Assembly (NCBI GenBank): GCA_977020255.1
Contig: CDROCS010001491.1
Location: forward strand, 441,500 to 498,000
DNA: 56,501 bases
Direction of reading: 5' to 3'
Source: Obrimoposthia wandeli
Lineage: Eukaryota
In this document: positions 1 to 52,725 of the stretch, one piece after another
Position numbering within the stretch: position 1 is the stretch's first letter
How the letters are laid out: the number at the start of each line of letters is the position of its first letter
Translations under genes and position numbers: made by a program
The notes under the pieces: model-generated
The model's database searches: none
The model's input: the letters and a program-made list of their open reading frames with translations, nothing else
Told to the model about the DNA's origin: nothing

Positions 1-1000
1 ACTAGGAAATTGATAAACTACAAGTATAAGTGAAGGAATGTTAAGTTAAAACCTAGCAATATGCAGCTACACACGTATTTTAATAATAAAATTGATTTCT
101 ATTATCATAAAGGATTGATTCAAAAGGAACAGTTATATCAGAAGATGGTTTAGAGAGACTGTCAGTTAAACAAGGAGATCATAAGAACTAAGTTAGCACT
201 AGCTATTTCAAATCCATACATGGCAGCACCACTATTACCTCTAGGCGAAGGAGTATTTGCTAAAACCATGGGATAAGTACTGTATAGTTATAAGTACAAA
301 AACGTAGTGGTACAGTTGAGAAAAACAGAGCGATGCACAAGCGAATTGCCAGTGACGTATAATTTAAAATCACTCTTTGTAGAACCTATCACGAGAATGA
401 TACTTCCTAAAGACACTCCAACAAAAGAAATCAGCTGCTCCAATTATGGCACCTGAATATCAGATGACGAGTGATCTATGGATAACTTTACCTGACCGTA
501 AGCGAACAGCGACTCCAGAGATAATAAAAATGAGGACACTTAAAGAAAAAATGAACTTAAAAGCGGTAAGGAAAATTGAAAATGCAGGTTTATACAATGA
601 GAAAGATCTAAAAACGGCCTGGAACGAAATAATGTTTCCAGTAATAAGGACCAGAGTACTTATGGAAATTGTACATCGTGCATTACCACCAGGAGCTAGA
701 TATGCGAATTTTGATATGATATTGTTGCCAAATCATTTCAAAGAAGCAGCACATCAGACACTTAGGAAAATGTGGGGAAAATTCCTTGTTTTAGGACAAT
801 TATTTTCAATTATCATATAGGTTTTTATATTATAATTAAATTAGTACAGGTAATTATAGCTCAGGTGTTGTCTACATATAGTTTGTACAGGATAACCGGA
901 ATCACTTGGCAACTTATAATTGGATGTTTTCCATTTTTAGCGAAATATCTAATGTATCATCATCACGAGAATGAGTTACGAGCCATCAAGAAGGAGCAAC
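1..1000 (+). pseudogene. Chuvirus/Monjiviricetes-like fusion glycoprotein (env-like), C-terminal half with TM region; disrupted
   Basis: Frame +1 reads DCQLNKEIIRTKLALAISNPYMAAPLL..GEGVFAKTMG*VLYSY...VQLRKTERCTSELPVTY..KSLFVEPITRMI, frameshifts into ORF 446 (MAPEYQM...GLYNEKDL...IMFP...WGKFLVLG) and ORF 772 (hydrophobic FYIIIKLVQVIIAQV...GITWQLIIGCF). Pattern recognised as chuvirus-type glycoprotein; stops at 31, 151, 274. Confidence 0.8.
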
Positions 1001-1304
1001 ATCAAGCTAGAACTATACTACGAGAACCAAAGAACCGCCATGACGACGACAACGACGATAACGATAGTCCAAGAGACTATACAAAAATACCAAATACAGG
1101 ACATCCAAAGATCCCACTAAAAAACAAGAAGGAGCCAACACCAAACCTATATCCAATGAAGGAATTGAAGGAAGAGAAAGAAATGTTCAAGAGAGGCATT
1201 TTAATGATAAGACGGCCTAGAGTGAACTATAATGAGATTCCACAGAAAAAGATTTTAAAAATAATTCCAGAAGAACTCTGAAGTCTAGGATATCTAACGA
1301 GAAT

Positions 1305-1592
1305 CCGAATGATCCACCACAAGTAGCAGTAACAATGAACGGAAAAGAATATCTTACCGATGTCGATACTGGATCTGCAGTATCAGTACTGAGTAAAGAA
1401 ATCTTGTCATCAAAAGAATTAGAGGAAATATGTCCTAGGAAACAAACATTTGTCTACGTAAAGGGAACAGATGTAGTATCAGAAGGAACACTGAAATGTA
1501 AATTAACTATTGATGGAAGAGCATTGCAGATAAATGCCAAAATATTCACAGATTGTGGTAGTCCAGTCATGATTGGAATGGACGTGATATGA
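1305..1592 (+). pseudogene. Retropepsin-like aspartic protease (copy 1)
   Basis: PPQVAVTMNGKEYLTDVDTGSAVSVLS ... SPVMIGMD: catalytic DTG and distal IIGxD-like motif. Confidence 0.85.
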
Positions 1593-1859
1593 ATGTTTGA
1601 AGGAATAATAATAGTACCAAACAACAAGAGTTCAAAGAACAACAGTTGAGTGAGAGAGCTAAAGATGTTGAGAAGATCTACAGATAATGGAAAGACTACA
1701 CTAGTTTATATATAGGAAACATGTACCGGAACAGGAGACAGGAAGTGTTAGTGAGGTCGTTAATTCATTAAGAAGGAGTAAATGACGAACTACAAGCAAT
1801 GCGTAAGAGGGAATTATAATATGACACATTGAGAAACAAGGATCCTTCTAGATTTGAAA

Positions 1860-2870
1860 AGCACAGACGAAGATCACTAGAACCAAATTTTTCAAAATAA
1901 ATATTATGCAAAATGGCGAGAACTGGTTTACAAATGTTAAACGGAGACACGACTGATGACTCTGGTTTTAAAAAAGTAGTACGTTATATAAATTGTAGAA
2001 TGAATTTTAGAAATTGGGAAGACGTATATAACCCAATGAAACTATATAAATTGAAAGCGCCAACATGGCCATTCCTCCTAAACCTGAGAACTGCAAATGA
2101 ACCAGAAATTCAAACTGGGAAAGCACCTGACTTTGACAATAGTGATCAGATTCCAGAAAGAGAAACAGCCCAAATAACAGGCATGTGATAAAAAATAGTC
2201 GAATTGAAGATATATTCGAAGTAATGCGAGAAATAAACGAATGTGACGAACAATATCGAAAAGTAACCTTTGAAGATTCAAGACTTAAAAAGCTGGCAAA
2301 TAAGGGACTATTTGCTATAAAAAAGGATGGTAAAGAAGTAATTAAATGTCATAAATGCAAAAGAAACGAATTATTGATAGATATACTCTTGAGTTACCTA
2401 AAAAAGGTTTACATCATTTACATACATTTAAAAAACAAAAAGAACCAAAAACAGAATGTATAGTTGAATACCAAATAACACGAAAAGATATTTTGGCTCA
2501 ACAAGACACACTAGTAGTGTCATTCGTGAGAAGATTATATCCAAAAGAATCAGACAGGATCAGAGAATTGGTAGAATTGAAAATAAAAATTACACGGAAT
2601 GGATACGGATCAATTTTTGAATTATTACGAGATAAAAATGACAGTACAATTGAACCAAAGGAGAAAGAGTACATAAATGAATTAGAATACATGCTGGAAG
2701 ATCCGGAATGTGCAGTTTGCATGATCAACAAAGTAGAAGTTGCCTTTTTACCGTGTGGACATGTGAGAACATGTCGGAGATGTGCAAACGAAATGTTAAC
2801 ATGTCCGATTTCTAGAAAGATAATAGATCGACAAGTGAGAAATATTAGATCTCACTATCCAAACAAAGGA
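1860..2870 (+). pseudogene. IAP-like module (BIR, divergent BIR, C-terminal RING) inside the retroelement
   Basis: BIR1: RRRSL..KMARTGL...VR[Y]INC-X16-[Y]-X6-[W]PFL, exact BIR spacing with three Zn ligands each one base change away; BIR2-like: YRKVTF..KLANKGLF..VIKCHKC; RING: CAVCMINKVEVAFLPCGHVRTCRRCANEMLTCPISRKII (IAP-type C3HC4). Confidence 0.82.
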
Positions 2871-2929
2871 AGTGGACCGACAAAATGTAATAATTCGATA
2901 AATACAATATACCATATGGGAAATATAAA

Positions 2930-3030
2930 TGGAGCACAGCGACCAGCAGCTATCATTAGAGTCAATAATTTGAAAATAAAAGCCTTAATTTACACGGGCG
3001 CAGTAACATCGATAGTGAGTGAAGAAGCAC
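2930..3030 (+). pseudogene. Second aspartic protease remnant fused by deletion to the RT-RNase H connection
   Basis: IRVNNLKIKALI[Y]TGAVTSIVSEE (D to Y in DTG) followed directly by AQQALEDLKVRLIKAP. Confidence 0.75.
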
Positions 3031-4680
3031 AACAAGCGTTGGAAGATCTAAAGGTAAGACTGATAAAAGCACCGATATTAGCGTTTCCGGATATAAATCG
3101 ACAATTCATACTAATGACAGATGCAAATAACTATGCTGTAGAAGCAGTATCAGGACAAGAGGATAAGTAAGGAAGAAAACACGTCATCGCATATGCAAGT
3201 ATATGGTTAAATAGAGTAGAAAGAGGATACTCTGTTATCGAAAAGGAATGTCTAGCCATAGTATATTCATGTAGACAGTACAGACACTACTTGCTAGGAC
3301 AAAAAGTATTCCTGTATACAGATCACAAACCACTACAGTTCTTGTATAAACATAGAGACGAGATGAGCCAATTAAACCGATGGTTTCTGAAATTAGCTGA
3401 ATTTAATCTAGAAATCTGATATAGAACCGGAAAGTCGAATGGCAACGCAGATTGTTTGTCGAGATTTGCCAATGTAGATGAAAAAGGAAACATTATTCAA
3501 TAAGAAGGTCAAGGTGAAGTCAATGACCAGGGAGGAGAAGCAAATATACAGACAAATTTGCTGAAAACAGTAAAATAGACAAATAAATCATCAAGGAACA
3601 GAAGGAAGATAAAGAATTGAGTCTAATCAAAGAACTGTTAGTGAAAGAAGATCTAAATGATGAAATGACGAGAAAATACTCGATAAAAGAAGGAATATTG
3701 TATATTGTCAACAAAGTCGGAAAGATAGTAGTAGTAATTCCGAAGTCATTGAGAACGGCAGTGATGATCCAGTATCACGATGGAACACTGGGAGGACATC
3801 TGTCAGGACGAAAGACAATATCGAGAATTAAAGAGAAATACCATTGGGATGGTATGGAAGACGAGATAAAACAACAATTCAAAACCAGAATGCTGAAACA
3901 ATAGCACAAATCCTGGTAGAAGAGATAATATTTCGATATGGAGTACCTAGAAAATTATTAATTGATCAAGGAAAGAATTTCACTGGAGAAGTAATAAAAG
4001 CAGTATCGAAGATATTCGGAATTATGAAGTTACAAACTTCACCATATCACCCACAAACTGACGGTCTAGTAGAAAGGTTTAATAAAACTATCTGTATGAT
4101 GATACAATCTTATTGCTCCGATAAGCAAGATGATTGGGATAAGTATTTACCTTCATATTTATATGCTTACAGGAATTCAGTTCGAGAGGTGACGGGCCAC
4201 ACACCATTATATCTGATGTATCTCAGACAGAACAATATGCCAATGGATCTGGAGTGGACCCAACCAATATCTCAGTACCTAGAAACTGAAGAATACATTG
4301 TCGTCATGAAAGAAAGACTACAAGATTCTTGGACTAATACAGGGTTGAAATTGAAATTCAATCAAGAAAATTACAAGGAACAATACGACAAGAAAGCAAA
4401 ACCACACGAATTTAGAGTCGGAGATCAAGTGATGCTATTCTATCTAGTAATCAAACCAATTATATCGTTTAAACTTCATAGACCATACAAAGGACCATAC
4501 AAGGTGATACAGACAACCTCAACAAATTTGAAAGTAATCAACGAGGAGATCAGGAACAAAGAACCGATGATAGTACATGCGAACCGATGTAAACTGGTAC
4601 CGAATAAAGATAATGCGTCACGATATGAGCTACAATCACAGAAATTGAAGCCGAATACCAATACAATTAAACTTACATGA
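3030..4680 (+). pseudogene. Pol remnant: RNase H, integrase Zn-binding region and truncated integrase core
   Basis: Motifs as above; RT core (YxDD) absent; integrase lacks the segment between EDEIKQ and IQNQNAETIAQ. Confidence 0.9.
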
Positions 4681-5204
4681 ATGGTAAGTGATCGAAACTA
4701 CATAAATACGATGACAAATGGTAACGATGAAAAACCAATGATAATTGGTATGCTCAGAATGAAGCACCAAGTGGAAAGAGAAGTAATCCGACACATCGCA
4801 CCACAAGAGATATTAGAAGAAGACGAAGAGATCATAGTCGTTTTCGAAAAACAAAACCGACAGATGTAGCGAAAGAAGTTATTTTGAAAGATGCATTAAC
4901 AAAGAAAATTCTGTGTGAACTTAGAGTGTCATATTTCGATGGAAATACACTAGTCGTGGAACTTCATCAAAACTCCAATGTGTTTATGTCTGAGAAAGTG
5001 ATCATAGAAATCTCACTGACACAATGGCAGAACTATGACAGTACAGAAATAGGACTAGTCGGTCAGGAAGAAAAAGAATCAGCTGGTGGTCATATACTTC
5101 ATGGTACACTGAAAAGACTCAGACAAGAATACCATGATCTGATAATGGTATTACGTAATCCTATGAATATTAAAATAAATTATATTAAATGTAAACATAC
5201 CTAA
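4681..5204 (+). pseudogene. Unassigned accessory ORF(s) downstream of integrase
   Basis: Two near-contiguous ORFs with the same A-rich composition as the element; no recognisable motif. Confidence 0.35.
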
Positions 5205-8871: not shown

Positions 8872-9326
8872 ATTGAGATAGCTAATAATAATTATAATGG
8901 TTTTGTATATGGAGATGTTAGTCATTTGCTTTACAAACGAGGTAAATAGTGTGTATGTTTAAAAATTGCACAGATTATACGCTTGTTATTTTCAGATCAG
9001 ATGATTATTCAATTTGATTTCTTTAATTATTATTAGGGAATTGAAGTATAATTGATTGTATGGTGCCATTTGGTAGAGAACGTATATATTATCCAACTAA
9101 AATAAATGTTAACTGTATTCAGTCAGTCACAGAAACTGCAAACCTGAGTAAAATAATCAATCTCATCAAATTATCTTAGTTCATGAGTTCAACATGCATG
9201 TTTAAACCAGAAATATTTCCATCAGTTAGATGTCTCAAGTACAATCCTCCACATGTAAATATATTTAGAAGTAATACAGTCATTATTTTCCGATTAACTA
9301 GTTTAGACTATTACCTTAAGATTTAG
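8872..9326 (+). pseudogene. TBP-like protein, Polinton-borne, copy 1
   Basis: DYTLVIFRSG...CIQSVTETANLSKIINLIKL...CMFKPEIFPSVRCLKYNPPHVNIFRSNTVII, alignable by eye to both TBP repeats (TALIFSSGK; IQN...IRL...YEPELFPGL...LIFVSGKVV). Confidence 0.75.
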
Positions 9327-10135
9327 CAAAGGTATGATTTTTCAAGACGGTGTCGACTTTAGATAATGAGATAACTTGTATATTTTTTCGAACTACATTA
9401 GAAAATTGGTCACGCAACGATTAACCAATGAAACATCATAAGAAAATTTGTACTGTATGTTCATTCATTATAAAAATCTATGTATCTAATAAACACACGG
9501 TGGTTAAACAGGGCGAAGATATTATAAATTTTGATAAAACTCCATTGGATAAACCAGTTGTTCGTAATAATGATTAAGATCATATTGTAATTTCTATATG
9601 ATCGATTATTCCACATGTATATATTTGAATTAATTTATATCAGTATTGTGTTTGTCAGAAAGTAGTACGTCATCTTGATTGCATTGCAGCTATTCCGGGA
9701 GAAATTTCTTATATATCAGAGGGACCTAGTATAGGTATCAAGAATCCATTTATTGCCGAATAATATTTAATATGATTAAACTATTATTTAAATAGACACT
9801 CGCCAGATAAATCTGTTGAAACGTTATTACAGTCTAAATAGAATAAAGTCAGTTTAGTAAATATTTCTCTAACACGGGGTAAACATTAAGACTCAACATG
9901 TGAATTTCTAATCAATTTAACATTTTTACAATTAAAAACTGAAGACAGGGTTGTAAATTATCTTGAATATTTATTACCAGATCCAGAATGTGTTGTTTGC
10001 ATGTTAGACATGATTGAAGTAGCATTCTTACCATGTGGACACTTAAACACATGTAATAAATGTTCAGTCGCTTTATTACATGCCTATATTGTAAGAGATT
10101 TATTATACAGGAATGTATATCAGATTTCATGGTAA
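9315..10135 (+). pseudogene. IAP-like gene (BIR + RING), Polinton-borne
   Basis: DLAKV*FFKT..DNEITCIF[F]RTTLENWSRND*PMKHHKKICTVCSFI fits BIR C-X2-C-X16-H-X6-C with the second C mutated; RING DPECVVCMLDMIEVAFLPCGHLNTCNKCSVAL, then frameshifted CLYCKRFI. Confidence 0.85.
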
Positions 10136-10269: not shown

Positions 10270-12285
10270 ATGTCAAGGCATTTGTCTGTACATCGAGAAT
10301 TTGTAAAAAAAGAAACATACACTATCAACTTTTCATTAAATTTTATGAGCAAAGTTGGTTGTATGATTCCTGAAGCAGAGACTGCAGCCAGTAAAGTATG
10401 CGAAAACGAAATATTGATGCAGAGCTGTCGGCGCTTGATGTATCCAAGGTCAAACCTAAAGCTTCATTACATCTACTCTTTCATTTTATTATGGTTTATA
10501 TTATCATAAAAGTCTCCTTATTAAAAAGTATAATGCCATAGCTACTGTTGCTACTCTTGGGAAATTTATTTTATACTCCAAACTTTAGAGAAATATTTAT
10601 CTTTAACTGCATATGCTGAATTCTCTGCAGTTTTTGAGCGGCTCTTTAAAATAATTAATGACATATTTAAATGGCCAATTACACAGTCAGTGTTCCCAGT
10701 TTCGATTAATGATAAGGAGATTTTTCAATATAATTTGTGAAAACTTTCACAGATTTACAAAATACAACATAAATCAACCCATAACTGCATTCGAGAGTGC
10801 ACGTCTTCAAGACTCTAATGAGGTACTTACATTTTGGGATTGTAATTGTCAAAATCTTGTTGAGTCTATGCTTTTTTATATGAAGTTAGACATTTATTTA
10901 TTGGCTGATTTGTTTGAGTTTTTTCCTGTAAAATCTTTAGCAGAAGATGGGCTAGATCCCATGCATTTTTTTAATTTACTTGGTCTTTCATGGGCAACGG
11001 CAATAAAAACTCCTTATATTAATGTTGAGTTATTGCAAGATCCTATGATGTATCAAATGTATGATTATGATATACGCGGTGGAATGACTTTTGTCAACAA
11101 ACATCATGTTGTCAAAAATCAATCCATGGAGATTCTGTACATCAACATAATTAATTTGTATAGGTGGGCGCTTACTCAACCTCTACCACATGCCAACTTT
11201 AAGTGGATGTGTGATGTGGAAGAGTTGAATAAGTTGATGACAGATTTGCCTACTGTTGATACAGTTTCGTCAAATGTCGGCTATTTGGTTGACGTCGATT
11301 TAACAATCCCTCCTAATGTGCATGATTAATTGTATGATCTTCCAGTGCACCTATTCATCAATGTCCACCTAATTTAAAGGTTAAAAAATTATTGTTAACA
11401 CATGAAGACAGGTTGAATTACGTGTTGCATTGGCGGCTTCTTCAATTCTATATAAAGTAAGGAACAAAATTTACTCGAATTAATCGTGCTATAAGCTTTA
11501 GTCAAAACCTTTTGTTTAAAGACTATATTTAGAAAAATTCTAGAAAACGTTATTTGGCCTGTAGCAATTCAATCGACATTTAAAAATCTTTGAAAAATCT
11601 GTAAAGGACTTGCGGAAACGTATTTGTTTACGATTTTGCTATAATGAGTGCAAACTAATAACATATATTACCAAGTACAACTTCAAGCATATTTACCATT
11701 GCAGATTACTTGGTAAATTTTTTTTATTAGGAAAACAGAGTATTGTCACGATCGATTGAGTTATGTAAATCAAACTGTATTAGGTATTTCAAACCCTATA
11801 TTGTATGGGCTCCAATATATTGAATTATATAAATATCGCAATGAATTCAACTGTGAATTCAAACACTGACTCTTTCTTTTTACAATCTAGAAATGTTAGT
11901 TTACAATATCTGTTATTTCTGAAAATGTTTAGGGATAACTTACTTGATACCCATAAATATCCTGTTAATCATCATTTACACTGTAGGGTCAGATTTTGTA
12001 TGATGACTGTATTTTCCTACGCCTTTAATGCTACAGTTTACATACATCTAATAATACATATTCAATGAGAGCAAAGGGTGTGGGAAGAAACAATCTCACC
12101 ATGAGGCCTACCGGAAAGTGTATGATACTGTATGTAATGAAAGCGTTGAGCAAACTAAATTTATTTTAAGACCCAATCAACAGTATTTCCATAAGTCAAC
12201 AAAAATTGTTGTGAGTAGTTATGACGACAAACGCTGTTGGGTAGAAAAGAACGCTGGTCTGGCTTATGGACATTTCCGAATTTAA
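10270..12285 (+). pseudogene. Protein-primed DNA polymerase B (pPolB), decayed
   Basis: YMKLDIYLLADLFE...GLSW...IRGGMTFVNKHH...INLYRWALTQPLP...GYLVDVDL; C-terminal RAKGV...SSYDDKRCWVEKN..LAYGHF. Confidence 0.92.
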
Positions 12286-12551
12286 ACGGTTTTCATTTTT
12301 TTGTTTAGTATTTTAAAATTTTAGATCTTTATGGCACCTTAACTCTAACTTCTTGTTATTTCTATACTTTTTTAGGTTAGGTCTCATCTTTTCTGACAGA
12401 TCTCCTTGTGATATTTAGCTGATTAAATGTATATAAATTTTTTGTCTCATGCCTTTTATTATTATTCATATTTTGACCTTATATTTTTATCTTGAATGTT
12501 TTTTTTAAAAATAAAACGGGTTTAAAAAAAATCATTTATTATTATAACACA

Positions 12552-17510: not shown

Positions 17511-19459
17511 TTATATTAAAAATTACTCAATAGAGATAAATAAAAAACTTATAATTTGAAATAATAATATCATAGCCTACATTGAAATATACTTTTGTTA
17601 AATGAATAGTATTATAAATAAATGAGTTAGATGATTAGAAACTTAAATTTTGCGTTTCATTTTAACATTTTTTGTCATTTTGGAAAGTCAAATTAAGATT
17701 AAAATTTTAAAAATTAATGATAATTTTTTAAAAATTTTAAATTAATAGGTACAGTTTAACATTTTAACTTTAATATATTATTTAACTAAATCTTAACAAA
17801 ACATATATAATTCATAATTTTAAATGAATTTTTAAATTTATAACAAAGTTTTTTTTTAAATTAAGAACTTATCATTTTCACAAGAAACATGATTTGATGA
17901 ATGCCTATGATTTCTAAATGTATATTAATAGTTGAAGAAAAAAATTTAATTAATTTTTATTATTAGCATATTGTTTGGAAAGATTAATTTAAGCACTATT
18001 TTAAAATTAAAGAACTAAATACGTTAAAGTATTTTCGAAATATTCTTTTAAGATTTGTTTTTTAAAATCAGTCAATTTCTGATCTTTTTAAAAATTGAAT
18101 AAACAATATTTCAGTTATAAAGACAATATTAATAATTTATTTTTATTAAATCAATCTTCATAAATGCTAATATTTTTTATAGAATTTCTTTTTGAAAACT
18201 AATTTTATCCTTATTTTTATTTATAAAATTATCAACTATTTATTTTTTTAAATGTATTATGGTTATATTAGAATCAAAATGGGAATTCTAAAGAAATAAT
18301 TGTAAATTGATACAGATATATATTATAAATTCAATTTCATATAAATTGATTACTTTAAATTTTATAGTTTTTTCTTTATAATTCCTACTAAAAAAATGTT
18401 TTTTTTAATATAAATTTAATAAATTCATATTTATTTAAATTTTAGTAAAATTATAATAGAATAAAGATTTTTTTGAAACGGGAATTCAAAAAATAAAATA
18501 AATAATAAAGTGCCTTCAATTTAAATGACAAAGAAATGATACAAAACGTCAGGAAATATATTTTTAGTCATTTTAAAACCTAGTCAGTGATATATTGTTC
18601 AAAGTTACCGTTATGAAAGTAAAATATGTATTATTTAAAACAGAATCAGAAAATTAGAGTGATACGTAGGAATTTTTATGAAAAAAATGTAATTTTTTTG
18701 ATAAAGTTGATCAAAAGTGTCGGTACTTATTTAGAATTCTCCAACTTTTAATTAATATTATTATAATAAAAATATCATTTTAATCATATGAAATATTTTA
18801 AAATTTGTCTATATTATACTATTAAAATTTTTATTTATCTTTCAAAATTTAAATTTTCTTGAAGTTAGCACTTTTAAGCCAGTTGATGTATATAAGTTTA
18901 GGTTGGCTTTTTTATATATTCAGATAAATTCATTTAAATTGCATCTAAATAAAAAAATTCGTCATACAATTTTAAAATCATATGAATTTTAATTACTTAA
19001 TAAAATTGAGAATTGATTCTGAATAAAAACCAAAATGACCGATTACCGTTTAATCATTGCTTTTCAATTTCTTGTTCAACATGTATATTAAATAAATAAA
19101 ACGAATATGTTTTTTAAAATGGTAAAAATTTATTAAAAAATATCTGATTTTTTTAAAAATGTAAATAATTAACACAATATTACTTTGAGATTTATTTGAG
19201 GGCACTGTGAAATTATAGGATCACGTTTCTTTAAAGCATATAGAGTTGCCACTTTTTATAGAATATCAATAAATAAACATTCACAACGAGTCAAACAAAA
19301 ATAAAACTAACTTTAAAAAAATATTATGAAAATTTGAATTATTTAAAAACCCATATGAACATAATGTGTAATTTAAATCGTAAGGCTATTTTAAATATAT
19401 TCTTTAAAAAAGATTTTAAGATACCAACCTAATAAAAATCTAAGTCAGGCTAGAGTAAA

Positions 19460-20968
19460 ATGTCAAATGTAAACAATTCCATGCTATTTTCCTTATCGTC
19501 CGAAGTAAATGGCATTGACAAGTGTGCAAATGATATCGACAATGTATTTCCAATTAGAATAAAGTCAGAACTTAAAGCATATAAGAAATACCAAAATAAG
19601 TTGAAGTTTAAAAGTCATAGATGTTCATATAATTTGTCTAACATACCGATTGATAATTTGTGGTTAGAAGTCCAGACAGCTAAGTTTCAAAAAACCCAAA
19701 AAAATAATCAGGCTGGGTTTGTAAATGTATTCAACAATCTTAATAATTATACCTCGGAAGCTCAATTATTTTTATTACCACTGATATACTTTAAATTTTC
19801 GTATGAGACTTTAGAGTATAATGAAATCAGAACAGAGTTTTTCCCTATAATATCTGATTGTACCGAAAAATATTACGTGTTTACTGAGCATTCTTTCCTG
19901 TCCAGATTGGAATCTAATATCAAAAATGTTAATTCTAATCTGGTGTATGAAATTCAAACCAAAATAGCCCTTATCCAGATTCCGAGTTGTTTCCACACAT
20001 ACTCGTATCCCAAATATATCAGAGATACCATATTCAAAAAGAAAAGGTTGATTACTAACCGTAATTTTACTCCTCCGATGAATTCTAATGCCTGCCTCTC
20101 TTATGAATCTCCGGAAACTGACAAGTCTTCAAATAAGGTCTGCAGCCTTTTCAATGCCGGCTCTATATCTTCATCGATGGGCTCAGACATTGATAAGATC
20201 CAGTTTGGTGCCGTGTTTGCCAACCAAAACAATATCCAAAATCCGGAGCTGTTGAATTCATTGCCAAAGCTCTGGAACCAGAATCTTTTGATATCAATTG
20301 ACTACATTCTTCAAGCATCTGTTATTCCAAAATCGTGGATTATTCTCTTTCAGTTTTCGGACTATTATGTAGATGTCATCATACAATCATTGCTTCGCGT
20401 TTTCATTTTAGAGTCAAACTCGTTCTGTAAAGTCAACCGAAAAACCAAGAAACGGAATATTCGCAGTTCAAGCTATAACATAATTCTCCGGAATTCTCTA
20501 CGAAATCTCTTCAGACAGGTTCAATCAAGCATCATGGCGTCAACTTTAAAGGTGGCTATCGATGATTTCTTTGAAGAGAATTGTTTGAAAGGGCATATCT
20601 TCTCAAAACATGGTGTGTGCAGGAAGAAATTAACTGAGAAAACATTCGGAAGAAAGGAACTGTTGACTAAACATTCCACTGACTTAGACCGCAGATTGAA
20701 ATTAAAGAGGGACTTTCAGAACAGTGGTATTAAGAATCGACGATTGACGAAGTACAGCTCTGCGTTTCAGTATGCAAAAGAAAGAGGCAAGTGCAACTCT
20801 CAAACTGTTCTAAAAGGAATCGAAAGGGCGTCAGAGCAAGATCTGAATTCAAAGAATCGGAACACGTTAGCCTCGAAATTCAGAATGGAAGGTGATGTCA
20901 CCAATCATTTGACACAGAAGCTGCGCAAAAAAGCTGTTAGTTTGTGTACTTTCTTTTTGACTTTTTAG
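19460..20968 (+). CDS. Hypothetical protein (502 aa), no recognised domain
   Basis: Longest non-repetitive intact ORF, AAAATG start context; a possible terminal intron from GTTAGT (~20936) to TTTGTAG (~21014) would end it ...KKA|IFSM*. Confidence 0.6.
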   Translation: MSNVNNSMLFSLSSEVNGIDKCANDIDNVFPIRIKSELKAYKKYQNKLKFKSHRCSYNLSNIPIDNLWLEVQTAKFQKTQKNNQAGFVNVFNNLNNYTSEAQLFLLPLIYFKFSYETLEYNEIRTEFFPIISDCTEKYYVFTEHSFLSRLESNIKNVNSNLVYEIQTKIALIQIPSCFHTYSYPKYIRDTIFKKKRLITNRNFTPPMNSNACLSYESPETDKSSNKVCSLFNAGSISSSMGSDIDKIQFGAVFANQNNIQNPELLNSLPKLWNQNLLISIDYILQASVIPKSWIILFQFSDYYVDVIIQSLLRVFILESNSFCKVNRKTKKRNIRSSSYNIILRNSLRNLFRQVQSSIMASTLKVAIDDFFEENCLKGHIFSKHGVCRKKLTEKTFGRKELLTKHSTDLDRRLKLKRDFQNSGIKNRRLTKYSSAFQYAKERGKCNSQTVLKGIERASEQDLNSKNRNTLASKFRMEGDVTNHLTQKLRKKAVSLCTFFLTF

Positions 20969-21954: not shown

Positions 21955-22245
21955 AAAGATTATACTATAGTTATATTTCCATCAGGTATTATTATTACTA
22001 TTATTAATATACTACTATTTAAGCTATTGCATAATTATGAGTTGCAAACAAACATGTTAAAAATATAGAAATTGAATGATTTCAATCTCTAAGTATCCAA
22101 GTAAATATCAACAAAAAAGTTAATTTGTGTAAGGTATCTGTGAAATTGGGAAGAAATTGTATGTTTGAACCAGAATTGTTTCCAGCACTCGGAATTTTAA
22201 AAGGTTTACGACTCAATTGTACAAGACTAGTGGCCCTAATAATTT
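21955..22245 (+). pseudogene. TBP-like protein, copy 2 (partial)
   Basis: KDYTIVIFPSG..CIIMSCK...FQSLSIQVNINKKVNLCKV..GRNCMFEPELFPAL. Confidence 0.78.
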
Positions 22246-25200
22246 ATGTATTTCAAACAACTAATAATTTAGTATTGCCTCCAAAATGTGAATTTCCTCA
22301 TAGTGTTACATATTATAAATTTAATTCAGCTCACACAATGTGGGAAAAACTAAGTTGCACTAATATTAAAGACTATATATGATGTAATATATGCGTCTTG
22401 ATGTATACTCACTTTGTGATGTATATGAGGCTTTTAGACAAAAAGTTAAATCTGGTGATAATCATGAGGCTTTTAATTTCTATACTATTCCGGATCTTAG
22501 TTGATGTAGTGCAGTATAATCATTAACACACAAAGTAGAATTGATGCATGAACCCGAAATGTATAATCTCTTTGAAGCACATATTAGAAGAGGTATGACT
22601 TTTTTCAATAAACATTATTGTAAAACCGATGATAGTAGATCACTTCTCTATATAAATGTAAATAATTTTTACGATTGGGCTTTAAACCAACCTTTACCAC
22701 ATGTGTAATACCTTTCCGTTTACTACTATTCTATGTTTTTGATGGTGCTGAAATATTAAAAATTCCTTGGGCTATTCGGTTTTGACAAGCACCCGTTTTA
22801 AAACAATATATATATTTTAATTCAAACAAGTGGTAACTAGTGTCAATAAATTTGAATATGAATTTTATAAGTTGAAAAATAATTTTATTTACGGTAGAAC
22901 GGTTGAAAATCTTAAGAGGCGGCTTGATATTAGATTATGTAATAATTATAAACGGTTTTAAAAATTAGTTTTGAGTCCTTGGTTTAAATAATTATTTATT
23001 TAAATTTAGTTTTTATGTGGAAACAATAAATATATTTAGATGGGCCTTCCTATATCTGTCAAGATGTACTTGATCTATCTAAATTATGAATGTATAAATG
23101 ACAATATATTGAGCTTGAACGGAAAAGACAAAATTTTAATTGTAGTATTCGAATTGTAGCCATATACACAAATTCTTTTTTCCTTGAGTTTGTGTATATT
23201 AATAAGGATAAATTACTTAAAGAAATGATTAAGAATGGGTACAAGTAATTGTCCTAAAACACATCCCTTGTATTCAGAGAACTTTAAAGCTGTAATTGAA
23301 AATGTTAAAGATGAAAGTGAGGGTACTGATTATAATGAGATGGTTTTCTTAAAACGAAAATGTTTCTCACTTCAAAATAAATCAAAGGCTAAAGGTATTT
23401 CTTTAAAACAAACTAATTTAAGACATCAAGAGTAGCTCAATTGTTATGAAAATGAATAAATTATTAGTGTTAACCAGTCACATATAGCATCGGTTAACCA
23501 TCAGCTTCATACAACATTTACGTCTATAGTTGCTTTAAAATATTTTGATGATAAAATGAGATGGGTTAGTAAGAATAAAAGCCTAACTTATGGTCATTTC
23601 AGTTTAACTTAACAATTTGTAAATAAGATATATATAGATTTTGTTGTATGATTTTATATTTAATGTTGTTGTATATTATCATTTGTGTACATACACATAC
23701 GTTAGTAGTTCATGTAAGTTCAGTTGAAAATAAATAAACTTAATATAGTCACTTTGACATTAAAGGAATGTCCAGAGATATGTTCAAACCTTCAACAATT
23801 AGAGAGGGGGAAAGTCTTGTCAAGCAATACTTATTAAACAATTAGTAGCAATTGGTAAGATTATACGGCGATTTCCCTCACCATTTTTTCTATGTATGTG
23901 ATGAATAATTTGAATAAACGTATCACATATATACATGAATAAAGCGGTCAGTTTTGTAAATAAAAAGTTCAGAAATTTAAAATATATTTGGTCAAAAATG
24001 GTTTTAATTTAGCATATTCGGTTTTGCCATATAATTGGACCAATACAATAATAATTTCAATTTTAAAGTAACTGGTTTACATACTACAATTTTTACTTCA
24101 ACAAACAAATAAGTATAAAATAATAAATATGAAGATCAGATTTTTTTCCTGACCAACTACTTTAGGATAAAAGAGTAAATTTTAAAATATTATAAAACTC
24201 ATTGATTAAAAATTGTTGATTAAAAATCTTCGACAACTTCCACGTGAGATTTTTTATGATATAGAGTCATTTATTTAAATATAGATGAAGCATTTAAAAT
24301 ATCAAACAGTCCATGCTGTATGATTTTCTCTGGTGATAAATGATCTTTCTAGGCATAATTAATAGTTTCTCCCAATTTCAGTCTCTGGAGATCTTCTAAT
24401 CGAAGAACAAATTGAACTATCTCTGAACATTTTGTTTTATCAAAAGTTATTTGACAAAATGATGTGTAAGTAAAAATATTTCTCTGACAATCCAAGATCT
24501 CTTAAACTTTCAGATTATTTTCAATTTAAATACTTTCTAATATGAAGCTGCTACGTCAACTCATATACATAATCAGGTATATGTCTAATTTCAAATGATC
24601 GATTTGACGTAGCTTTGTCGCAATTATTTAACTTATTAACACTGATAATATTTGTTAAATAAAGAAATCTAAGAGATCAGTTTCAAAAAAAGATAATTTC
24701 TGATTACTACGAATATTTATTTCTCTGTATGAAATTCCTCGACTATCTTTTTGTGATTTACTCAAATAACTCTATGTTAATTAATCAAATATTCAGTCAA
24801 ATTCGGTAGAAAATGGAGATTTATTTGAGACCCAGTTTTAAATAATTTTATGATTGATCATTTGATTTATTGTCAAATCATAGTGTGACAATCGTGTCTG
24901 ACTCAATGTCCTCTTCAATATTCCCGAGTTTTGTTTGCTTTGCTGCCTTTCGGATGCATGCTGCTTTCATTTGTGTCTCTAATTTCTATATTATAAATAA
25001 AACACGCTCCAGAACATTTTAAATTATCATTTACATTAAATATATGTTATGTTCAATATTCAAAGTTTTAACACTTAACTGATTTTGGGGTCTTTGAAGA
25101 CTCCAATGGATTTTCAATTGACCATTACACTTGCATACATGTTTGATCAAACTGATTAGATTTTTTCGCGAGAATTAGTTTTTTTCAATGTATACGTAAG

Positions 25201-26326: not shown

Positions 26327-29302
26327 TGTTGGGGTTTCTATACGAAACTTGTACAGATCCTCTTATGTGCGGAGGGCCCCAACGTGAGTTCGAATAGAAG
26401 CAGGTCTTAAAGTTGGTCGTGGCCTACTTAGTGTTATGGTTGCCTATCTCTATTTCTTATCTGAAGGTGTTTGGTTTGACGTCTCTTAATCTGAAGAGTT
26501 TTAAAAACAACGTGTTCTAATGTAGGAAATTGTTTATTGGTAGCACACTAAACTGAACACAACAATACGTTTATGTACGTATTCTCTAAAAAGTATAATA
26601 AAAATTCCTAAGACTTCTGTAAGTCTCTACAACAAGTGGGGATGAACCACGTATCGATTTTACGGTTATGTTTGTTTTAGTCACTAGAGTCTTTACTCTA
26701 AAAATAGGGATTGATTTTAGAGAGCTGTTGCTCTAAAATTTGAGTAGCCTAAAGAGCTGAAGCTCTAAAACAGAGAATGAATTTAGGGAGCTTGTTGCTC
26801 TAAACTGTGCTGATTTGAATTTTAGCTTCAATATTGATGTTCACTTAAGTTTAGATTCCCTTACGAGACAATAGGTATACTTTATCAAAATTCCTGAAAT
26901 CCTTTTTTAAAACAATCGATTTACTATATCGAGATTAATTTCGTTTTCCAATATTTCCGTTTACTTTATTTAAATTTCGAAATTCAAAATATCCTACGAT
27001 TTCAAAATTCAATTATCTTATTATTTCTTTCACGACAACAGATTATTTTATTCGAAATATCTTATGATTTCAAAATTCAATTATCTTATTATTTCTTTCA
27101 CGACAACAGATTACTTTATTCAAAATATCTTACGATTTCAAAATTCAAATATCTTATTATTTCAATTTGTCTTCACGACAACATATTACTTTATTCAAAA
27201 TATCTTATCTTATTATTTCAATTTGTCTTCACGACAACAGATTACTTTATTCAAAATATCTTATGATCTCACAATTCAATTATCTTATTATTTCAATTTG
27301 TCTTCACGACAACAGATTACTTTATTCAAAATATCTTATGATCTCAAAATTCAATTATCTTATTATTTCGATTTGTCTTCACGACAACAGATTACTTATT
27401 TCAAAATATATTACGATTTCAAAATTCCAATATCTTATTATTTCAAAATGTCTTCACGACAACAGATTACTTTATTCAAAATATCTTATGATCTCAAAAT
27501 TCAAATATCTTATTATTTCAATTTGTCTTCACGACAACAGATTACTTTATTCAAAATATCTTATGATCTCAAAATTCAAATATCTTATTATTTCAATTTG
27601 TCTTCACGACAACAGATTACTTTATTCAAAATATCTTATGATCTCAAAATTCAAATCTTATTATTTCTTTCATTATTTCAAAATTTGTCTTCACGACAAC
27701 AGATTACTTTATTCAAAATATCTTATCTTATTATTTCAATTTGTCTTCATTACTCAAAATATCTTATGATTAAAATTCTTATTATTTCAATTTGTCTTCA
27801 CGACAACAGATTACTTTATTCAAAATATCTTATGATCTCAAAATTCAATTATCTTATTATTTCTTTCACGACAACAGATTACTTTATTCAAAATATCTTA
27901 CGATTTCAAAATTCAAATATCTTATTATTTCAATTTGTCTTCACGACAACAGATTACTTTATTCAAAATATCTTATCTTATTATTTCAATTTGTCTTCAC
28001 GACAACAGATTACTTTATTCAAAATATCTTATGATCTCAAAATTCAATTATCTTATTATTTCAATTTGTCTTCACGACAACAGATTACTTTATTCAAAAT
28101 ATCTTATGATCTCAAAATTCAATTATCTTATTATTTCTTTCACGACAACAGATTACTTTATTCAAAATATCTTACGATTTCAAAATTCCAATATCTTATT
28201 ATTTCAAAATGTCTTCACGACAACAGATTACTTTATTCAAAATATCTTATGATCTCAAAATTCAATTATCTTATTATTTCAATTTGTCTTCACGACAACA
28301 GATTACTTTATTCAAAATATCTTATGATCTCAAAATTCAATTATCTTATTATTTCAATTTGTCTTCACGACAACAGATTACTTTATTCAAAATATCTTAT
28401 GATCTCAAAATTCAATTATCTTATTATTTCGATTCTTCTGGCTCACCTCCCAATCTGCAGATAATTTCTGGCTCGTTCGGTGCCTGGTTCCGACGCTTTT
28501 TTGTCTCCTCTCGGTACTTGATCTCGGAACAGCGACTTTCTGTCCGCTGAATTGTGGTTTACGCCTTGGATAGTTGGCGTGCCTCGTTTCTGTTCTGTAC
28601 GTTTGTTTTAATGATTTCTTCTCTAACTATTTTCTTACCTCTGCTGATCGGCTTGGCGTCCGGTCTCGATCAGAAGTGAGCTTGTTTCTGGAACTATTGA
28701 ATTCCACGAGAATTTTCTTGTTACTGAATTCCAATCGGTTGGGATAGGCTGAGAATTCTGCTTTCTCTCGATCTGGAATTAGTCTCTTTGAAATATTGAT
28801 TTTTTGGGCTAATTTCCGTAGACTATATAGTCTATTTCTCTGACTCTCTTCGGTGACTTCCAATCAACGACTTATATAGTCGATATAAATCAGCTGCCTA
28901 CTGAGTTCTGGCTTTTCTAATGATTTCCCGGTGACGTGATCTGTCACTCAGTCTTCTGGTTTGCTGCGATAAGTATTTATTTCAAATAAATTAATTAAAT
29001 TTTCTCACTTCAGGAACAGCTGTCGGGACGTGGCTGCTGACGTCGACTGAATTCCGGTTTGCACTTCTTCTTTTCCTTTTTTCCAATTTTCCAATTAGTC
29101 TTCTTTTCTTGCAATAACTTGCAGAGCTATATCTTTTTTGGGGCCCTTTTGTTAGATATAAATTTCTATACATACCTACACATTTCACACGACCTTCGTG
29201 GTTCTCTAACATTTAATCTTATTTAACCCAATAATTTTAATTTTGATTTTTAAAATTTATTAAATTAAATTCTAACCTTGCTTTCAAGGATTTTCATTTT
29301 CA
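26327..29302 (-). mobile_element. Solo LTR-like element (family A, copy 2) with expanded tandem array, inserted in ORF-Y
   Basis: TG...CA ends, near-TSD ATAT/CTAT; homologous blocks with 13398-14896; the interrupted frame resumes (NFSAFIKAD...|FKRIYNYSEEEFPKS) and matches the uninterrupted copy at ~21700-21950. Confidence 0.8.
26990..28432. repeat. Tandem array of ~20 units, 75-bp consensus with 68- and 56-bp deletion variants
   Basis: ATTCAATTATCTTATTATTTCAATTTGTCTTCACGACAACAGATTACTTTATTCAAAATATCTTATGATCTCAAA. Confidence 0.97.
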
Positions 29303-29838: not shown

Positions 29839-30175
29839 ATGAAAATAGTCAATATAAATTATAAAATTAACTTTAAGGGAAGTGTTAGTCACTTACCTTT
29901 TCGATCAAAGAAACATATACAATATGTTGAAAAGCCAAAGGATCATACTATAGTTATATTTCATCTAGGTATTATTATTATTACTACTATTTAGGCTCAT
30001 GCAGAATTATGGGTTGCAAACAACCAATCAAACATGTTCAAAATATAAAAATTGGATGTATTCAATCTATAAGTATCCTAGTGAATATCAACAAGAAGGT
30101 TTATTTGTATAAGATATCTATGAAAATGGGTAGAAATTGTATGTTTTAACCAGAATTGTTTCCAGCACTTGATAT
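29839..30175 (+). pseudogene. TBP-like protein, copy 3
   Basis: MKIVNINYKINF...KDHTIVIF..G|SCRIMGCK...CIQSISILVNINKKVYLYKI..GRNCMF*PELFPAL; 26-nt GT-AG intron at 29969-29994. Confidence 0.8.
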
Positions 30176-30713
30176 TTTTCATATAATGATATTTTTCTTC
30201 AAATTTTTATCGAAATATATTAATTTGAAAAATAACATACAATAGATAAATTGGAGATTAAATTCAAAAAATTAATAAGACATACTATTTATTGAGACAA
30301 ATCTACCAGTTACAAGCTCGATTTACTACTTTTGTATCATTTAATTTAAACTCGTAACTTCCATTGTATGCCTTTATAAACTTCAATGTAACAAATTCAT
30401 AGTCTGGTCTAACTAAATATCAACTGTTTATCTAAATCGAATGTTCAATAAATATCAATAATTCTATGTATACCCTATAATATTTCAATAATTTACTTAA
30501 TAACTAACGGGTGTATAATTGACATCCGCACATGGAGTTAAAACTCTGACAGTTTGATAGATCATCTTGAAATTTGAAACACGTTAAAAATTATAGATAT
30601 TAAAAAAATGCTTTAACCAATCATTTTCATCAACTTATATATTTATCACATAAAATGGAGAATTTAAATGTACAACAAAGATATGTTATAATAAAATACT
30701 TGATGAATCATTA

Positions 30714-32420: not shown

Positions 32421-34135
32421 ATGCTAAAACTGGTTATTAATAATGATATGAAAAATGATTTATTAAATAAAATTAATGCATTTGGGCCTTGTAAAATCCA
32501 ATTTGGTATTAAAGCTCAATTTGTAAACATAGAAAACCAATTTAAAACATGGCATATTAGTTGTAAGGCTGCAGTTTTCGATGATGAGTTTATTGTTATT
32601 AGAACAGACAAGTTAAATAATTGTATTGAAAAATACTCGGAATTGAGTAGTGGTTGGTCAATCTATAAAATATTACAAATTTCTTTTAAATTAACTAAAT
32701 TATCCAGTGTTTCGGGTTCTTCATATATACCATCACCACATAAATTAATAAATAAAATGACATTAATTAATGTAAAAAAACAGCGATAATAAATGTTTAC
32801 TCTATGCTATGCTATCCTTTAAAATATAATGAAGTTCAAAATAGAGATCGAACATGTTCTTATGATCAATATTGAAATGATTTTAAATGTCAGCCAAGTC
32901 CTATGCCCTTAGCCTCAATACCTCAATTTGAATGTGATAACAAAATAGCAGTTACAGTTGTTAAGTATTCTGAAATTAAAAGTAAATACCTGATTAAAGA
33001 TGTGGTGAAAAATCCTGATGTTAGTATAATTTACCGAACAAAACTACGGGAATGTAATCAAATTGTTAATTTACCTTTGTTAGAAAACCGTAACACTTAT
33101 CATTATTGTGGTGTTCCTAATTTAAATAGATTATTTAAATGTCATAGTTATGGTTTATGCCTTTACTGGTGTCCGAAATGTCTTTTTGGTTTTCAAACTG
33201 TGGCTGCTTATGATAAACATAGAATCCATTGTAATTTTAATACTAAATCTTTATTCACTATGCTGGATAATAAATATTGTGAATTCACAGATTGGTTAAA
33301 GTCAGTTCAACCTCCTTTTGTAGTTTACGCTGATTTTGAAAGTATTTTAGAACCTGATGTGACTGTTAAACATATACATACTCCCATTTCAGTTGGAATG
33401 TTGTTGAAAAATAATGTTACTGACACAATATAATACTTTTCGTATTTCGGTTTAGATTGTGCTACCAACTTTATTGATAAATTAACGGAAATTCTTAATG
33501 AAATTGTTGCACATTTTTGGAGAAATAATGTGAATGCACGTCTTAAAATGACAAATGAAAATCAAGTAGCTTTTCAAGCGAGTCGCACATGTTACCTTTG
33601 TTATAAAATCCCTAGAAATTTAGTACGTGATCATGATCATATTTCAGGTGCATTCTTGGGTGCAGCATGTAATAAATGTAATTTATCTCGTAGATTCGGT
33701 AAGAGACCTATGTTACCAGTACTTTTTCACAACTTAATGGGTTATGATATTCATCATATTTTAAAATTTGCAAAATTAAAAGAAAAAAGTTATTCAATCA
33801 TACTCAAATCTAGTGAAAGATTCATGGCTCTCAAAATAGAATTATCAACTGGAACATTGAAATTTTTAGATTCATATCTTTTTACAACAACTAGTCTTGA
33901 AATATTGGTTAGTTATCTTTCAAGTTCACCGTATACAACAAGATATTTTAGTACTGATTTGATATCTAGTAAAGGTGTTTTTCCCTACGAATATATTTCC
34001 AGTGAATCTAAGTTGTATGAAGATAGATTACCTCCAAAATGTGAATTTCTTGATAGTGTTACAGATGATAAATATAATTCAGCTCACACAATGTGGAAAT
34101 AACTAAGTTGCACTAATATTAAAGACTATATGATG
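32421..34135 (+). pseudogene. pPolB N-terminal/exonuclease region with endonuclease-VII-like insert
   Basis: SGW..., CPKCLFGF, PFVVYADFESIL, CYLCY...VRDHDHISGAFLGAACNKCNL, VLFHNLMGYDIH, KFLDSYLF, KGVFPYEYI. Confidence 0.93.
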
Positions 34136-34199: not shown

Positions 34200-35040
34200 A
34201 AACTATCAATTACTTTTTATGTAATGAAATATTACAATAATAACTTATCTTATTGCAGTTCAAATGCAGAAACTGGCTCAAGGCATGCTTCATGATATGA
34301 TGCATATCGTAGCCCCGCAAGCTGTGAAAAATAATCGGGAGACTACGACTCAACCGCCTACTGAGGTTACACTTGAAATGAGCCACACCGAGAAACTCCC
34401 CTTTCATATGATCATGATTGCGCTTCTTGTTCGCAACTCGCTTCTTTCCCAAATAGCAGATTGGAGTTGAGTTGAAACTAACAATCTGTACTGGCGTAAG
34501 TGGGCACATAGCTTCGGCGGCATGGCTTCCATACCTAGGGCACACAATCTCCTTCACTAGCTGCTTTAGATTCTTCAAAAACTCAACAACACAAGACTCA
34601 CCAGTAAAAGCAGAGTACTCGTGCTGGAAAGTAGTGGAATCCACTGAAACAGGAGAGAACACCATACCCGCCGCAATTGGAAGGCGGATTTGATGGTGAA
34701 TCCCATGCGGTGGTAGTACTGCTTCGAAGTCGAAGTAGAGGGAAAACGGAGGAGAAATTGTCTAGCTCAAGTCTGAATTCACAGTACTTGTTTATAAGCA
34801 TCTGGTACAGAGTTGTATACTCTGTATTCGAAGTGCAGAGGGACACATGCTTATTGAACGCCTACACTCCGTGGATACATTTGTGATACCACGTACATTG
34901 AATACGAGTTGCAGTCCGTCTGTTCCTATAGTTAAATAACATATTCAACTAAAGTACTACTACGTAGTGGTAAGTGCTATCATTTTCAAGTAAAAGCAAG
35001 TTGACGGGCTTTCCTGCTAGATTAGTGGTTCGGTAGATCA
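34200..35040 (-). pseudogene. pPolB fragment from a different, GC-richer Polinton lineage
   Basis: FTGESCVVEFL...CYLG...RNHDHMKGEFLGVAHFKCNLSRR...IIFHSLRGYDMHHI; markedly higher GC than its flanks. Confidence 0.88.
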
Positions 35041-52539: not shown

Positions 52540-52725
52540 CCGTCTGTCCATTTCGGCGTTGCCTTGTTCAGCCTGAAGTGCCTTGCGCATTCCAAATGCG
52601 ACACTGGACTCGTAGAGAGATTGGTAAGCAGCTATAGTCATACGAATCTCGTCCCTCACGCGCAACAACAATAGACCACGTTCCGCACAGTTAATTGTCA
52701 CCTGTCGGATCAGCTCATCGAATAC
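52540..52725 (-). CDS. DNALI1: DNALI1/p28 internal coding exon (upstream exons not found in window)
   Basis: VFDELIRQVTINCAERGLLLLRVRDEIRMTIAAYQSLYESSVAFGMRKALQAEQGNAEMDRR|GTATGT; donor certain, acceptor (ATCAG| at 52726) inferred. Confidence 0.95.

What the first reader, a model, noticed from the sequence alone, without database searches (positions are those of the whole stretch)
1860..2870. Retrotransposon-encoded inhibitor of apoptosis (2 BIR + RING), hidden from the ORF track
Seen: BIR1 keeps exact C-X2-C-X16-H-X6-C spacing with three ligands changed by single substitutions (TAT, TAT, TGG), a second more divergent BIR-like unit, and an IAP-type RING. Known: two BIRs plus RING is the architecture of baculovirus IAPs and DIAP1. 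Inference: the element could block apoptosis in cells where it is active.
Basis: partly seen in the sequence, partly recalled or inferred. Interest (0 to 1): 0.8.

Follow-up and report, generated by a model that had tools for sequence, protein, structure and literature searches.

The report
Dead Burro-like retrotransposon carrying apoptosis inhibitor
This is a broken copy of an envelope-bearing jumping gene that carries its own cell-death-blocking gene, a real but already described arrangement (the planarian Burro elements), and this particular copy can no longer work.

Summary
Bases 1860-2850 hold a decayed, intronless IAP (BIR, a second BIR-fold unit, helical spacer, cIAP-type RING) inside a Ty3/gypsy remnant ordered env - protease - IAP - protease - (RT deleted) - RNase H - integrase. 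Pfam misses both BIRs, but a profile from the two nearest relatives with a first BIR finds BIR1 (E 3.5e-7). The IAP shares the element's codon bias, and its RING runs in frame into the second protease, so it was probably resident polyprotein cargo. This copy is dead: stops, frameshifts, lost zinc ligands, RT deleted. The idea is not new: planarian Burro/GYPSM1 elements have env between gag and pol and a BIR, and Burro1's BIR+RING 'B-IAP' is reported to protect stem cells from caspase-mediated death (seen second-hand only). Burro membership and the host were not tested by sequence, and no intact polyprotein relative was found. Extras: the IAP sits between two proteases, and a second decayed IAP of the same family lies at 9290-10135 between TBP-like and polB remnants of a Polinton-like element.

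The parts
1..1113 (+). C-terminal half of a gB/chuvirus-type envelope glycoprotein gene, in three frames with stops; runs off the window's 5' end
   Evidence: Pfam Monjiviricetes_fusion PF24664, E 5e-25, 1e-14, 2.4e-7, profile positions 296-650 of 653
1323..1589 (+). Aspartic protease 1 (PR1), whole domain, catalytic motif intact at 1365, stop near its end
   Evidence: Pfam Asp_protease_2 E 9.1e-6, positions 1-90 of 90
1667..1859 (+). N-terminal extension of the IAP, shared with its closest relatives; contains stops
   Evidence: tblastn P0001 residues 76-217 to 1667-2101, E 4e-6
1860..2077 (+). BIR1 remnant: exact ligand spacing, 1 of 4 ligands left, internal stop at 1898
   Evidence: family BIR1 profile E 3.5e-7, 0 of 2000 shuffles; positions; no Pfam BIR hit
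2239..2400 (+). Second BIR-fold unit (His-X3-Cys type in relatives); first two Cys kept, frameshift near 2385, last two ligands not assignable
   Evidence: hhalign E 8e-6; relative's unit aligns to BIRs at Z 6.1-7.2
2454..2690 (+). Helical spacer at the place of the UBA domain of cellular IAPs (UBA identity not established)
   Evidence: 33-35% identity to relatives over spacer+RING; only a non-significant match to the cIAP1 UBA, i-E 650; helical in the model
2700..2852 (+). IAP-type C3HC4 RING, 7 of 8 ligands left
   Evidence: Pfam zf-C3HC4_3 E 4e-11; cIAP1 RING E 3.8e-11
2853..2936 (+). 28-codon open linker joining the RING in frame to protease 2
   Evidence: no stop; open in 9% of 20000 shuffles; both other frames have stops
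2937..3029 (+). N-terminal remnant of a second aspartic protease (PR2), catalytic residue lost; joined in frame, across a deletion that removed RT, to the RT connection/RNase H
   Evidence: Pfam RVP E 0.013, weak; no RT domain in the ORF
3030..3479 (+). RT connection and RNase H, two stops
   Evidence: Pfam RT_RNaseH E 1.3e-34
3737..4596 (+). Gypsy-type integrase: zinc-binding part, internal deletion and frameshift, then core and C-terminal domain
   Evidence: Pfam Integrase_H2C2 E 1.1e-12; 218 homologues of 512 candidates, best 60% identity; profile positions 80-133 unmatched
4731..5204 (+). Unexplained open frame after the integrase, probably part of the element
   Evidence: no Pfam family; Atlas best score 0.82, below the lead threshold
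9287..10135 (+). Second decayed IAP of the same family (BIR + RING), 5'-truncated, stop right after the RING, in a non-retroviral context
   Evidence: Pfam BIR 30.5 bits (cut-off 22.9), RING 33.5 bits; 50% aa identity to the first RING over 62 residues

Best explanation
This is a dead, internally deleted copy of an env-bearing Ty3/gypsy element of the Burro kind whose long polyprotein carried a captured cellular-type IAP between two retroviral proteases. SHOWN: the domain order env-PR1-IAP-PR2-RH-IN on one strand; the IAP is intronless, shares the element's codon bias and runs in frame into PR2; its RING region diverged under purifying selection; this copy is broken. INFERRED: in an active ancestor the IAP was translated as part of the polyprotein and cut out by the element's protease(s). 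That would free the RING's C-terminus, which IAP RINGs need in order to dimerise (recalled knowledge). BIR1 would then bind caspases or their antagonists and the RING would ubiquitylate them, keeping alive the cell in which the element is expressed. REPORTED for the closest known case, Burro1: its B-IAP protects planarian stem cells from caspase-mediated apoptosis (second-hand).
For: Pfam domains in order on the + strand. Four-fold-site A3/(A3+T3): element core 193:60 (0.76), IAP 51:20 (0.72; Fisher p 0.44), polB remnants 79:128 (0.38; p 1e-6 against the IAP). BIR1-to-RING distance 241 codons against 251 and 244 residues in two intact relatives, so no introns. RING-PR2 linker open and in frame: about 0.09 x 1/3 by chance (the one-third is my arithmetic). 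dN 0.50, dS 1.31 between the window's two RING regions, 62 codons, Fisher p 0.007. PMC6431247 section 7: Burro/GYPSM1 has BIR among its motifs and mononegavirus-like env in frame between gag and the protease. PMC13524379 passages: GAG-ENV-POL gypsy elements with gB-type env occur in Nematoda, Bryozoa and Platyhelminthes. PMC13465017 passage: Burro1 B-IAP = BIR + RING, anti-apoptotic. First kilobases 33-36% GC and most of the window under 33% GC, in line with over 70% A/T in Schmidtea.
Against: No intact polyprotein holding IAP plus protease or RT was found (the tools call the negatives of 11 and 44 weak). All 7 closest relatives end within about 10-27 residues of the RING as stand-alone ORFs, and their genomic context is unknown. 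No Burro sequence was available; 0 of 3 BURRO1 primers match (uninformative for a partial, diverged copy). The host is unidentified. Two proteases are not mentioned in the Burro text I read (figure not seen). PR2 has only weak support (E 0.013) and no detectable similarity to PR1. The PR1-IAP junction is frameshifted, so its frame cannot be read. BIR1 has lost more ligands than the estimated decay of about 3.5% per site predicts (P 0.002-0.003, post hoc), so BIR1 may already have been degenerate in the active parent.
Confidence: 0.72

Rival explanations
1. Independent capture: an env-bearing gypsy lineage of another animal (for example a bryozoan or nematode) acquired an IAP separately from Burro and works the same way.
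For: GAG-ENV-POL elements are polyphyletic and occur in three phyla. The integrase has no named close relative. The one host exon (DNALI1) does not identify the taxon. The two-protease layout is not in the Burro text read.
Against: The only BIR-bearing, env-before-protease gypsy elements in the 10 literature searches run are Burro. Base composition fits a planarian.
Confidence: 0.12
2. Chimera: the stretch joins two elements (env-PR1 from one, PR2-RH-IN from another) or an IAP picked up by this one copy; the IAP was a stand-alone accessory ORF and not a polyprotein domain.
For: Two unlike proteases. The copy has at least two internal deletions, so it has been rearranged. Relatives and the second window copy stop right after the RING. 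PMC6431247 notes that Burro accessory ORFs can be separate or fused.
Against: Uniform strand skew and codon bias from base 1 to about 4700. The open, A-biased linker is in frame with PR2.
Confidence: 0.12
3. The IAP is a processed pseudogene of a host gene inserted into a dead element, with no role for the retrotransposon.
For: Intronless; cellular-type RING; a second copy lies 7 kb away in another context.
Against: Codon bias like the element's and unlike other coding remnants of the window. In-frame fusion to PR2 with no 3' UTR or poly(A) tract after the RING. The two copies are only 50% identical in the RING region.
Confidence: 0.04

Closest known systems
Burro1/GYPSM1 and Burro-2 to -4, giant gypsy elements of planarians (PMC6431247 section 7; Lee et al. 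2026 Dev Cell, seen only through PMC13465017)
   Same: Gypsy pol order; mononegavirus-like env upstream of the protease; BIR + RING IAP carried by the element; AT-rich host; decayed copies known (Dugesia japonica).
   Different: This copy is dead and lacks RT. It has a protease on each side of the IAP and a second BIR-fold unit, neither mentioned in the texts read (figures and the Dev Cell paper not seen). Gag, MATH, BCL2, ankyrin, dUTPase and LTRs are not visible in the window. No sequence comparison was possible.
GAG-ENV-POL errantiviruses with HSV/gB-type env (PMC13524379)
   Same: gB-type env placed before pol in a Ty3/gypsy element.
   Different: The main text has 0 occurrences of 'apoptosis', 'BIR' or 'RING'; no IAP cargo is described there.
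Cellular IAPs cIAP1/cIAP2/XIAP and DIAP1
   Same: RING most like cIAP1/2 and XIAP; BIR folds; helical spacer at the UBA position.
   Different: The RING is not at the end of the ORF; no CARD; the second unit has His-X3-Cys spacing in relatives; intronless and mobile.
Baculovirus IAP-3 and other viral IAPs
   Same: Two BIR-fold units plus RING, intronless; top BFVD hits for the intact relative (E 9e-10).
   Different: Only 13-20% identity among the top 30 rows; longer spacer before the RING; carried by a retroelement, not a large DNA virus.
Unnamed IAP family P0001-P0004, P0018, P0048 (UniParc/ENA records)
   Same: Same layout along the whole IAP, 33-37% identity over spacer+RING; four of them are the top 4 of 1458 hits.
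   Different: Stand-alone ORFs ending just after the RING, with intact ligands; organism and genomic context unknown.

Membership tests
IAP (BIR + RING) | At least one BIR domain (Pfam PF00653 above cut-off) | tested here: inconclusive
   Not reached by the copy as it stands; homology to relatives that pass the cut-off is significant
IAP (BIR + RING) | Intact Cys-Cys-His-Cys zinc ligands in BIR1 | tested here: not met
   1 of 4 left, plus an internal stop: a pseudogene of the family
IAP (BIR + RING) | IAP-type C3HC4 RING | tested here: met
   PF13920 43 bits, cut-off 27; best PDB hits are IAP RINGs; eighth ligand lost
IAP (BIR + RING) | Second BIR | tested here: inconclusive
   Homologous unit folds as a BIR in relative P0003 (Z 6.1-7.2, rmsd 2.5-6.3, 67-80 aligned; below the tool's Z 8 caution); broken in the window
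IAP (BIR + RING) | Caspase inhibition / E3 ligase activity | not testable with these tools
   needs bench work on a naturally intact copy
Ty3/gypsy LTR retrotransposon | Order PR-RT-RH-IN with gypsy-type RNase H and integrase | tested here: met
   PR, RH, IN in order; RT deleted; named integrase hits include gypsy integrase-like and K02A2.6-like proteins
Ty3/gypsy LTR retrotransposon | Paired LTRs, gag, primer-binding site | not testable with these tools
   the 5' part lies outside the window; no LTR pair found
Burro/GYPSM1 | Mononegavirus-like env upstream of the protease | tested here: met
   PF24664 at 1-1113, PR1 at 1323; feature from PMC6431247
Burro/GYPSM1 | BIR + RING IAP carried by the element | tested here: met
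   feature
Burro/GYPSM1 | One giant polyprotein (about 4,900 aa) with MATH, ubiquitin-like, BCL2-like, ankyrin and dUTPase motifs; over 25 kb | tested here: inconclusive
   upstream part outside the window; the PR-RT interval is deleted; no such Pfam hit in 1-5200
Burro/GYPSM1 | Sequence or phylogenetic grouping with Burro1-4 | not testable with these tools
   no Burro sequence in the collections; 0 of 3 published primers match, uninformative
Burro/GYPSM1 | Triclad (Dugesiidae/Geoplanidae) host | tested here: inconclusive
   AT-rich genome with a DNALI1 exon; no taxon-specific marker

The most novel reading that the evidence does not exclude
One divergent IAP family (canonical BIR + His-X3-Cys BIR + spacer + RING) is shared anti-apoptotic cargo of two unrelated kinds of mobile element in the same genome: an env-bearing gypsy provirus, where it is a module cut out between two proteases, and a TBP/polB-bearing Polinton-like DNA element, where it is a stand-alone gene. 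The retroelement's IAP would then have reached it through, or been passed on to, a DNA virus rather than moving only from host to retroelement.
Probability: 0.25. Interest if true: 0.6.

Novelty: new member of a known kind. Interest (0 to 1): 0.32.

Why it matters
A transposon that carries a working cell-death inhibitor blurs the line between parasite and mutualist, and Burro1 is reported to aid planarian regeneration this way. That point is already published, so a dead copy adds little by itself. It would matter more if (a) the host is not a triclad, giving an independent capture; (b) the protease-IAP-protease layout is new, since it suggests how a RING that must end the protein can live inside a polyprotein; or (c) the same IAP family is real cargo of a Polinton-like DNA element, which would change the story of where B-IAP came from.

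Tried and rejected
Pfam and PDB sequence searches on BIR1 and BIR2 as they stand: no BIR hit; the 'ocr' and gp120 hits at E 0.13-0.5 are chance. Searches for longer proteins holding the IAP: 0 of 306 and 0 of 4806 candidates (weak negatives, upper limits 2000 and 2415 aa, below Burro's 4,873 aa). phmmer over 1.84 billion representatives: none of the best 150 of 1458 hits matched beyond query residue 192, so no RING-protease fusion was seen. GTDB scan for context: 14 pattern matches, 0 confirmed. Rfam: 0 matches. Atlas on the ORF at 4731 and on the N-terminus of P0001: no usable lead. Tree of 119 rows (117 of 151 hit proteins kept, 34 dropped for lacking the RING pattern or enough upstream sequence, plus the 2 window pieces), quick method only: the two window IAPs are sisters at SH-aLRT 84, inside a 9-row group with six family rows at 80; no starred support, so no conclusion on donor or direction. 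UBA identity of the spacer: not established by sequence or fold. BURRO1 primers: 0 of 3. Lee et al. 2026 and Grohme et al. 2018 are not held; PMC6431247 has no readable supplement and figures are not held, so the position of the BIR in Burro1 relative to its protease(s) is unchecked. No complex prediction was run.

Full report
OBSERVATION. The six-frame translation shows a BIR-shaped stretch in frame +2. Its four ligand positions are at 1985, 1994, 2045 and 2066 (spacing X2, X16, X6) and hold Tyr, Cys, Tyr and Trp; a stop lies at 1898. Pfam does not see it, the PDB search gives only chance hits, and a generic profile from 36 canonical BIRs gives E 0.25-0.5. I therefore searched 1.84 billion representatives with the downstream part only (2355-3020). 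Of 1458 hits, the best four (P0001-P0004) matched along spacer and RING, and P0001 and P0003 carry Pfam BIRs. P0001 aligns to 1667-2101 at E 4e-6. A profile of the first BIR of P0001 and P0003 hits it at E 3.5e-7, hits only the two IAP loci among 1128 six-frame chunks, and was not matched by any of 2000 shuffles. The second unit (frame +1, about 2239-2400) matches the relatives' second unit (E 8e-6). In a model of intact P0003 (mean pLDDT 51, about 63-75 in this unit) that unit aligns to BIRC6, NAIP, cIAP, XIAP and DIAP1 BIRs at Z 6.1-7.2. In relatives its last ligands are His-X3-Cys, not X6. In the window only the first two cysteines can be assigned. The RING is clear: Pfam E 4e-11, best PDB hits cIAP1, cIAP2 and XIAP, 7 of 8 ligands.

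CONTEXT. On the same strand Pfam finds the C-terminal half of a Monjiviricetes-type fusion glycoprotein (1-1113), a whole aspartic protease (1323-1589), then the IAP, then RNase H (E 1.3e-34) and integrase. Between RING and RNase H, in one open frame, lie a 28-codon linker and the start of a second protease (Pfam RVP E 0.013), joined directly to the RT connection: RT has been deleted. The integrase also has an internal gap. No LTR pair is present and the 5' half of the element is outside the window. I count 10 stops in 1588 assigned codons, roughly 3.5% decay per site. This copy cannot transpose or make a working IAP.

IS THE IAP PART OF THE ELEMENT? Three results say yes. At four-fold sites the A:T ratio of the IAP (51:20) matches the element core (193:60, p 0.44) and not the window's polB remnants (79:128, p 1e-6). 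Domain spacing matches intact relatives, so there are no introns. The linker is open and in frame with the second protease, about a 3% chance event (9% open in shuffles, times one frame in three). The RING regions of the window's two IAPs diverged with dN 0.50 and dS 1.31 (p 0.007, 62 codons), which indicates past constraint, though the region was chosen because it aligns. Against: no intact polyprotein with IAP plus protease was found; all seven close relatives end just after the RING and have no known context; the upstream junction is frameshifted. BIR1 has lost 3 of 4 ligands where the decay estimate predicts this at P 0.002-0.003 (post hoc; 4 of 14 assignable ligands overall, P 0.02-0.03; BIR1 against RING, p 0.07). 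BIR1 may therefore have been degenerate already in the active parent, or the decay estimate is low.

MECHANISM. Most likely (0.72) the active ancestor made one long polyprotein in which the IAP sat between two proteases and was cut out. Cutting would give the RING a free C-terminus, which IAP RINGs need for dimerisation and E3 activity (recalled, not tested). BIR1 would bind caspases or IAP antagonists and the RING would ubiquitylate them, so that cells expressing the element survive. The layout and past constraint are shown; cleavage and caspase inhibition are inferred. Rivals: independent capture in a non-planarian lineage (0.12), a chimera or stand-alone accessory ORF (0.12), a host processed pseudogene (0.04).

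WHAT IS KNOWN. PMC6431247 (section 7 read whole) describes planarian Burro/GYPSM1: gypsy elements over 30 kb with a 4,873-aa ORF1, BIR and BCL2-like motifs, and mononegavirus-like env in frame between gag and the protease; decayed fragments occur in Dugesia japonica. [quoted passage not shown] PMC13524379 (passages and supplement rows) places GAG-ENV-POL gB-type elements in Nematoda, Bryozoa and Platyhelminthes, lists six from Schmidtea, and does not mention BIR or apoptosis in its main text. PMC11410931 and PMC8532177 were seen as passages, the latter with one supplement row. The element works like Burro and meets its two diagnostic features that can be tested here. Membership by sequence, size, LTRs and host could not be tested. 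Ten literature searches showed no other IAP-bearing gypsy lineage and no description of a protease-IAP-protease layout or of this IAP in Polinton-like elements. The two most relevant papers and all figures were unseen, so that absence is weak.

SECOND COPY. A related IAP lies at 9287-10135: Pfam BIR above cut-off and RING, 50% identical to the first over 62 residues, ending at a stop right after the RING. No retroelement domain was found near it. It directly abuts a TBP-like remnant (Pfam TBP E 0.0036, below cut-off) and is followed by a polB remnant resembling other Polinton-like pieces in the window. Only 1 of 3 TBP-like copies has the IAP, its 5' part is missing at the junction, and its codon bias (42:30) is intermediate and was measured in a frame with 11 stops. 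It may be native cargo or an insertion. The tree makes the two window IAPs sisters with weak support.

VERDICT. A real feature, correctly read, but a dead member of a kind already described and already tested in Burro1. Interest 0.32; new member of a known kind. The open points are the host, the two-protease layout, and the possible sharing of this IAP family with a DNA element (probability 0.25, interest 0.6 if true).

Noticed in passing
window 9287-10135 (+): Second decayed IAP of the same family (BIR above Pfam cut-off, RING), 5'-truncated, between a TBP-like remnant and a polB remnant
   Followed up: partly
window 9087-9290, 22029-22235, 29988-30200 (+): Three related TBP-like remnants (Pfam TBP E 0.0016-0.0036, below cut-off); the first two precede polB remnants, suggesting a DNA virus-like element with its own TBP
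   Followed up: partly
window 10650-12300, 22270-23600, 32876-34100 (+), 34280-35130 (-), 55704-56460 (+): Several Polinton/Maverick-like protein-primed polB remnants (DNA_pol_B_2 E 1.2e-7 and Endonuclease_7 at 32876)
   Followed up: partly
window 37300-39000 and 44000-46300 (-): Two related decayed retroelement remnants, 73% identical over about 700 nt; the translations look BEL/Pao-like by recalled motifs, not tested
   Followed up: no
window 26870-28440: Tandem array with a 75-nt unit and 56/68-nt variants, about 21 copies
   Followed up: no
window 52530-52740 (-): Exon of a host axonemal dynein light chain (DNALI1/p28), Pfam E 7e-34; the only host gene recognised; does not identify the taxon
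   Followed up: partly
window 19454-20968 (+): 504-codon open frame with no Pfam family and no A-bias; unexplained
   Followed up: no
window 4731-5204 (+): 157-codon open frame after the integrase, no Pfam or Atlas lead
   Followed up: partly
P0001, P0002, P0003, P0048: The family's second BIR-fold unit has His-X3-Cys spacing, recalling the BIR-like zf-C3HC fingers (recalled); yeast Pml39 appears among the fold hits at Z 5.8
   Followed up: partly
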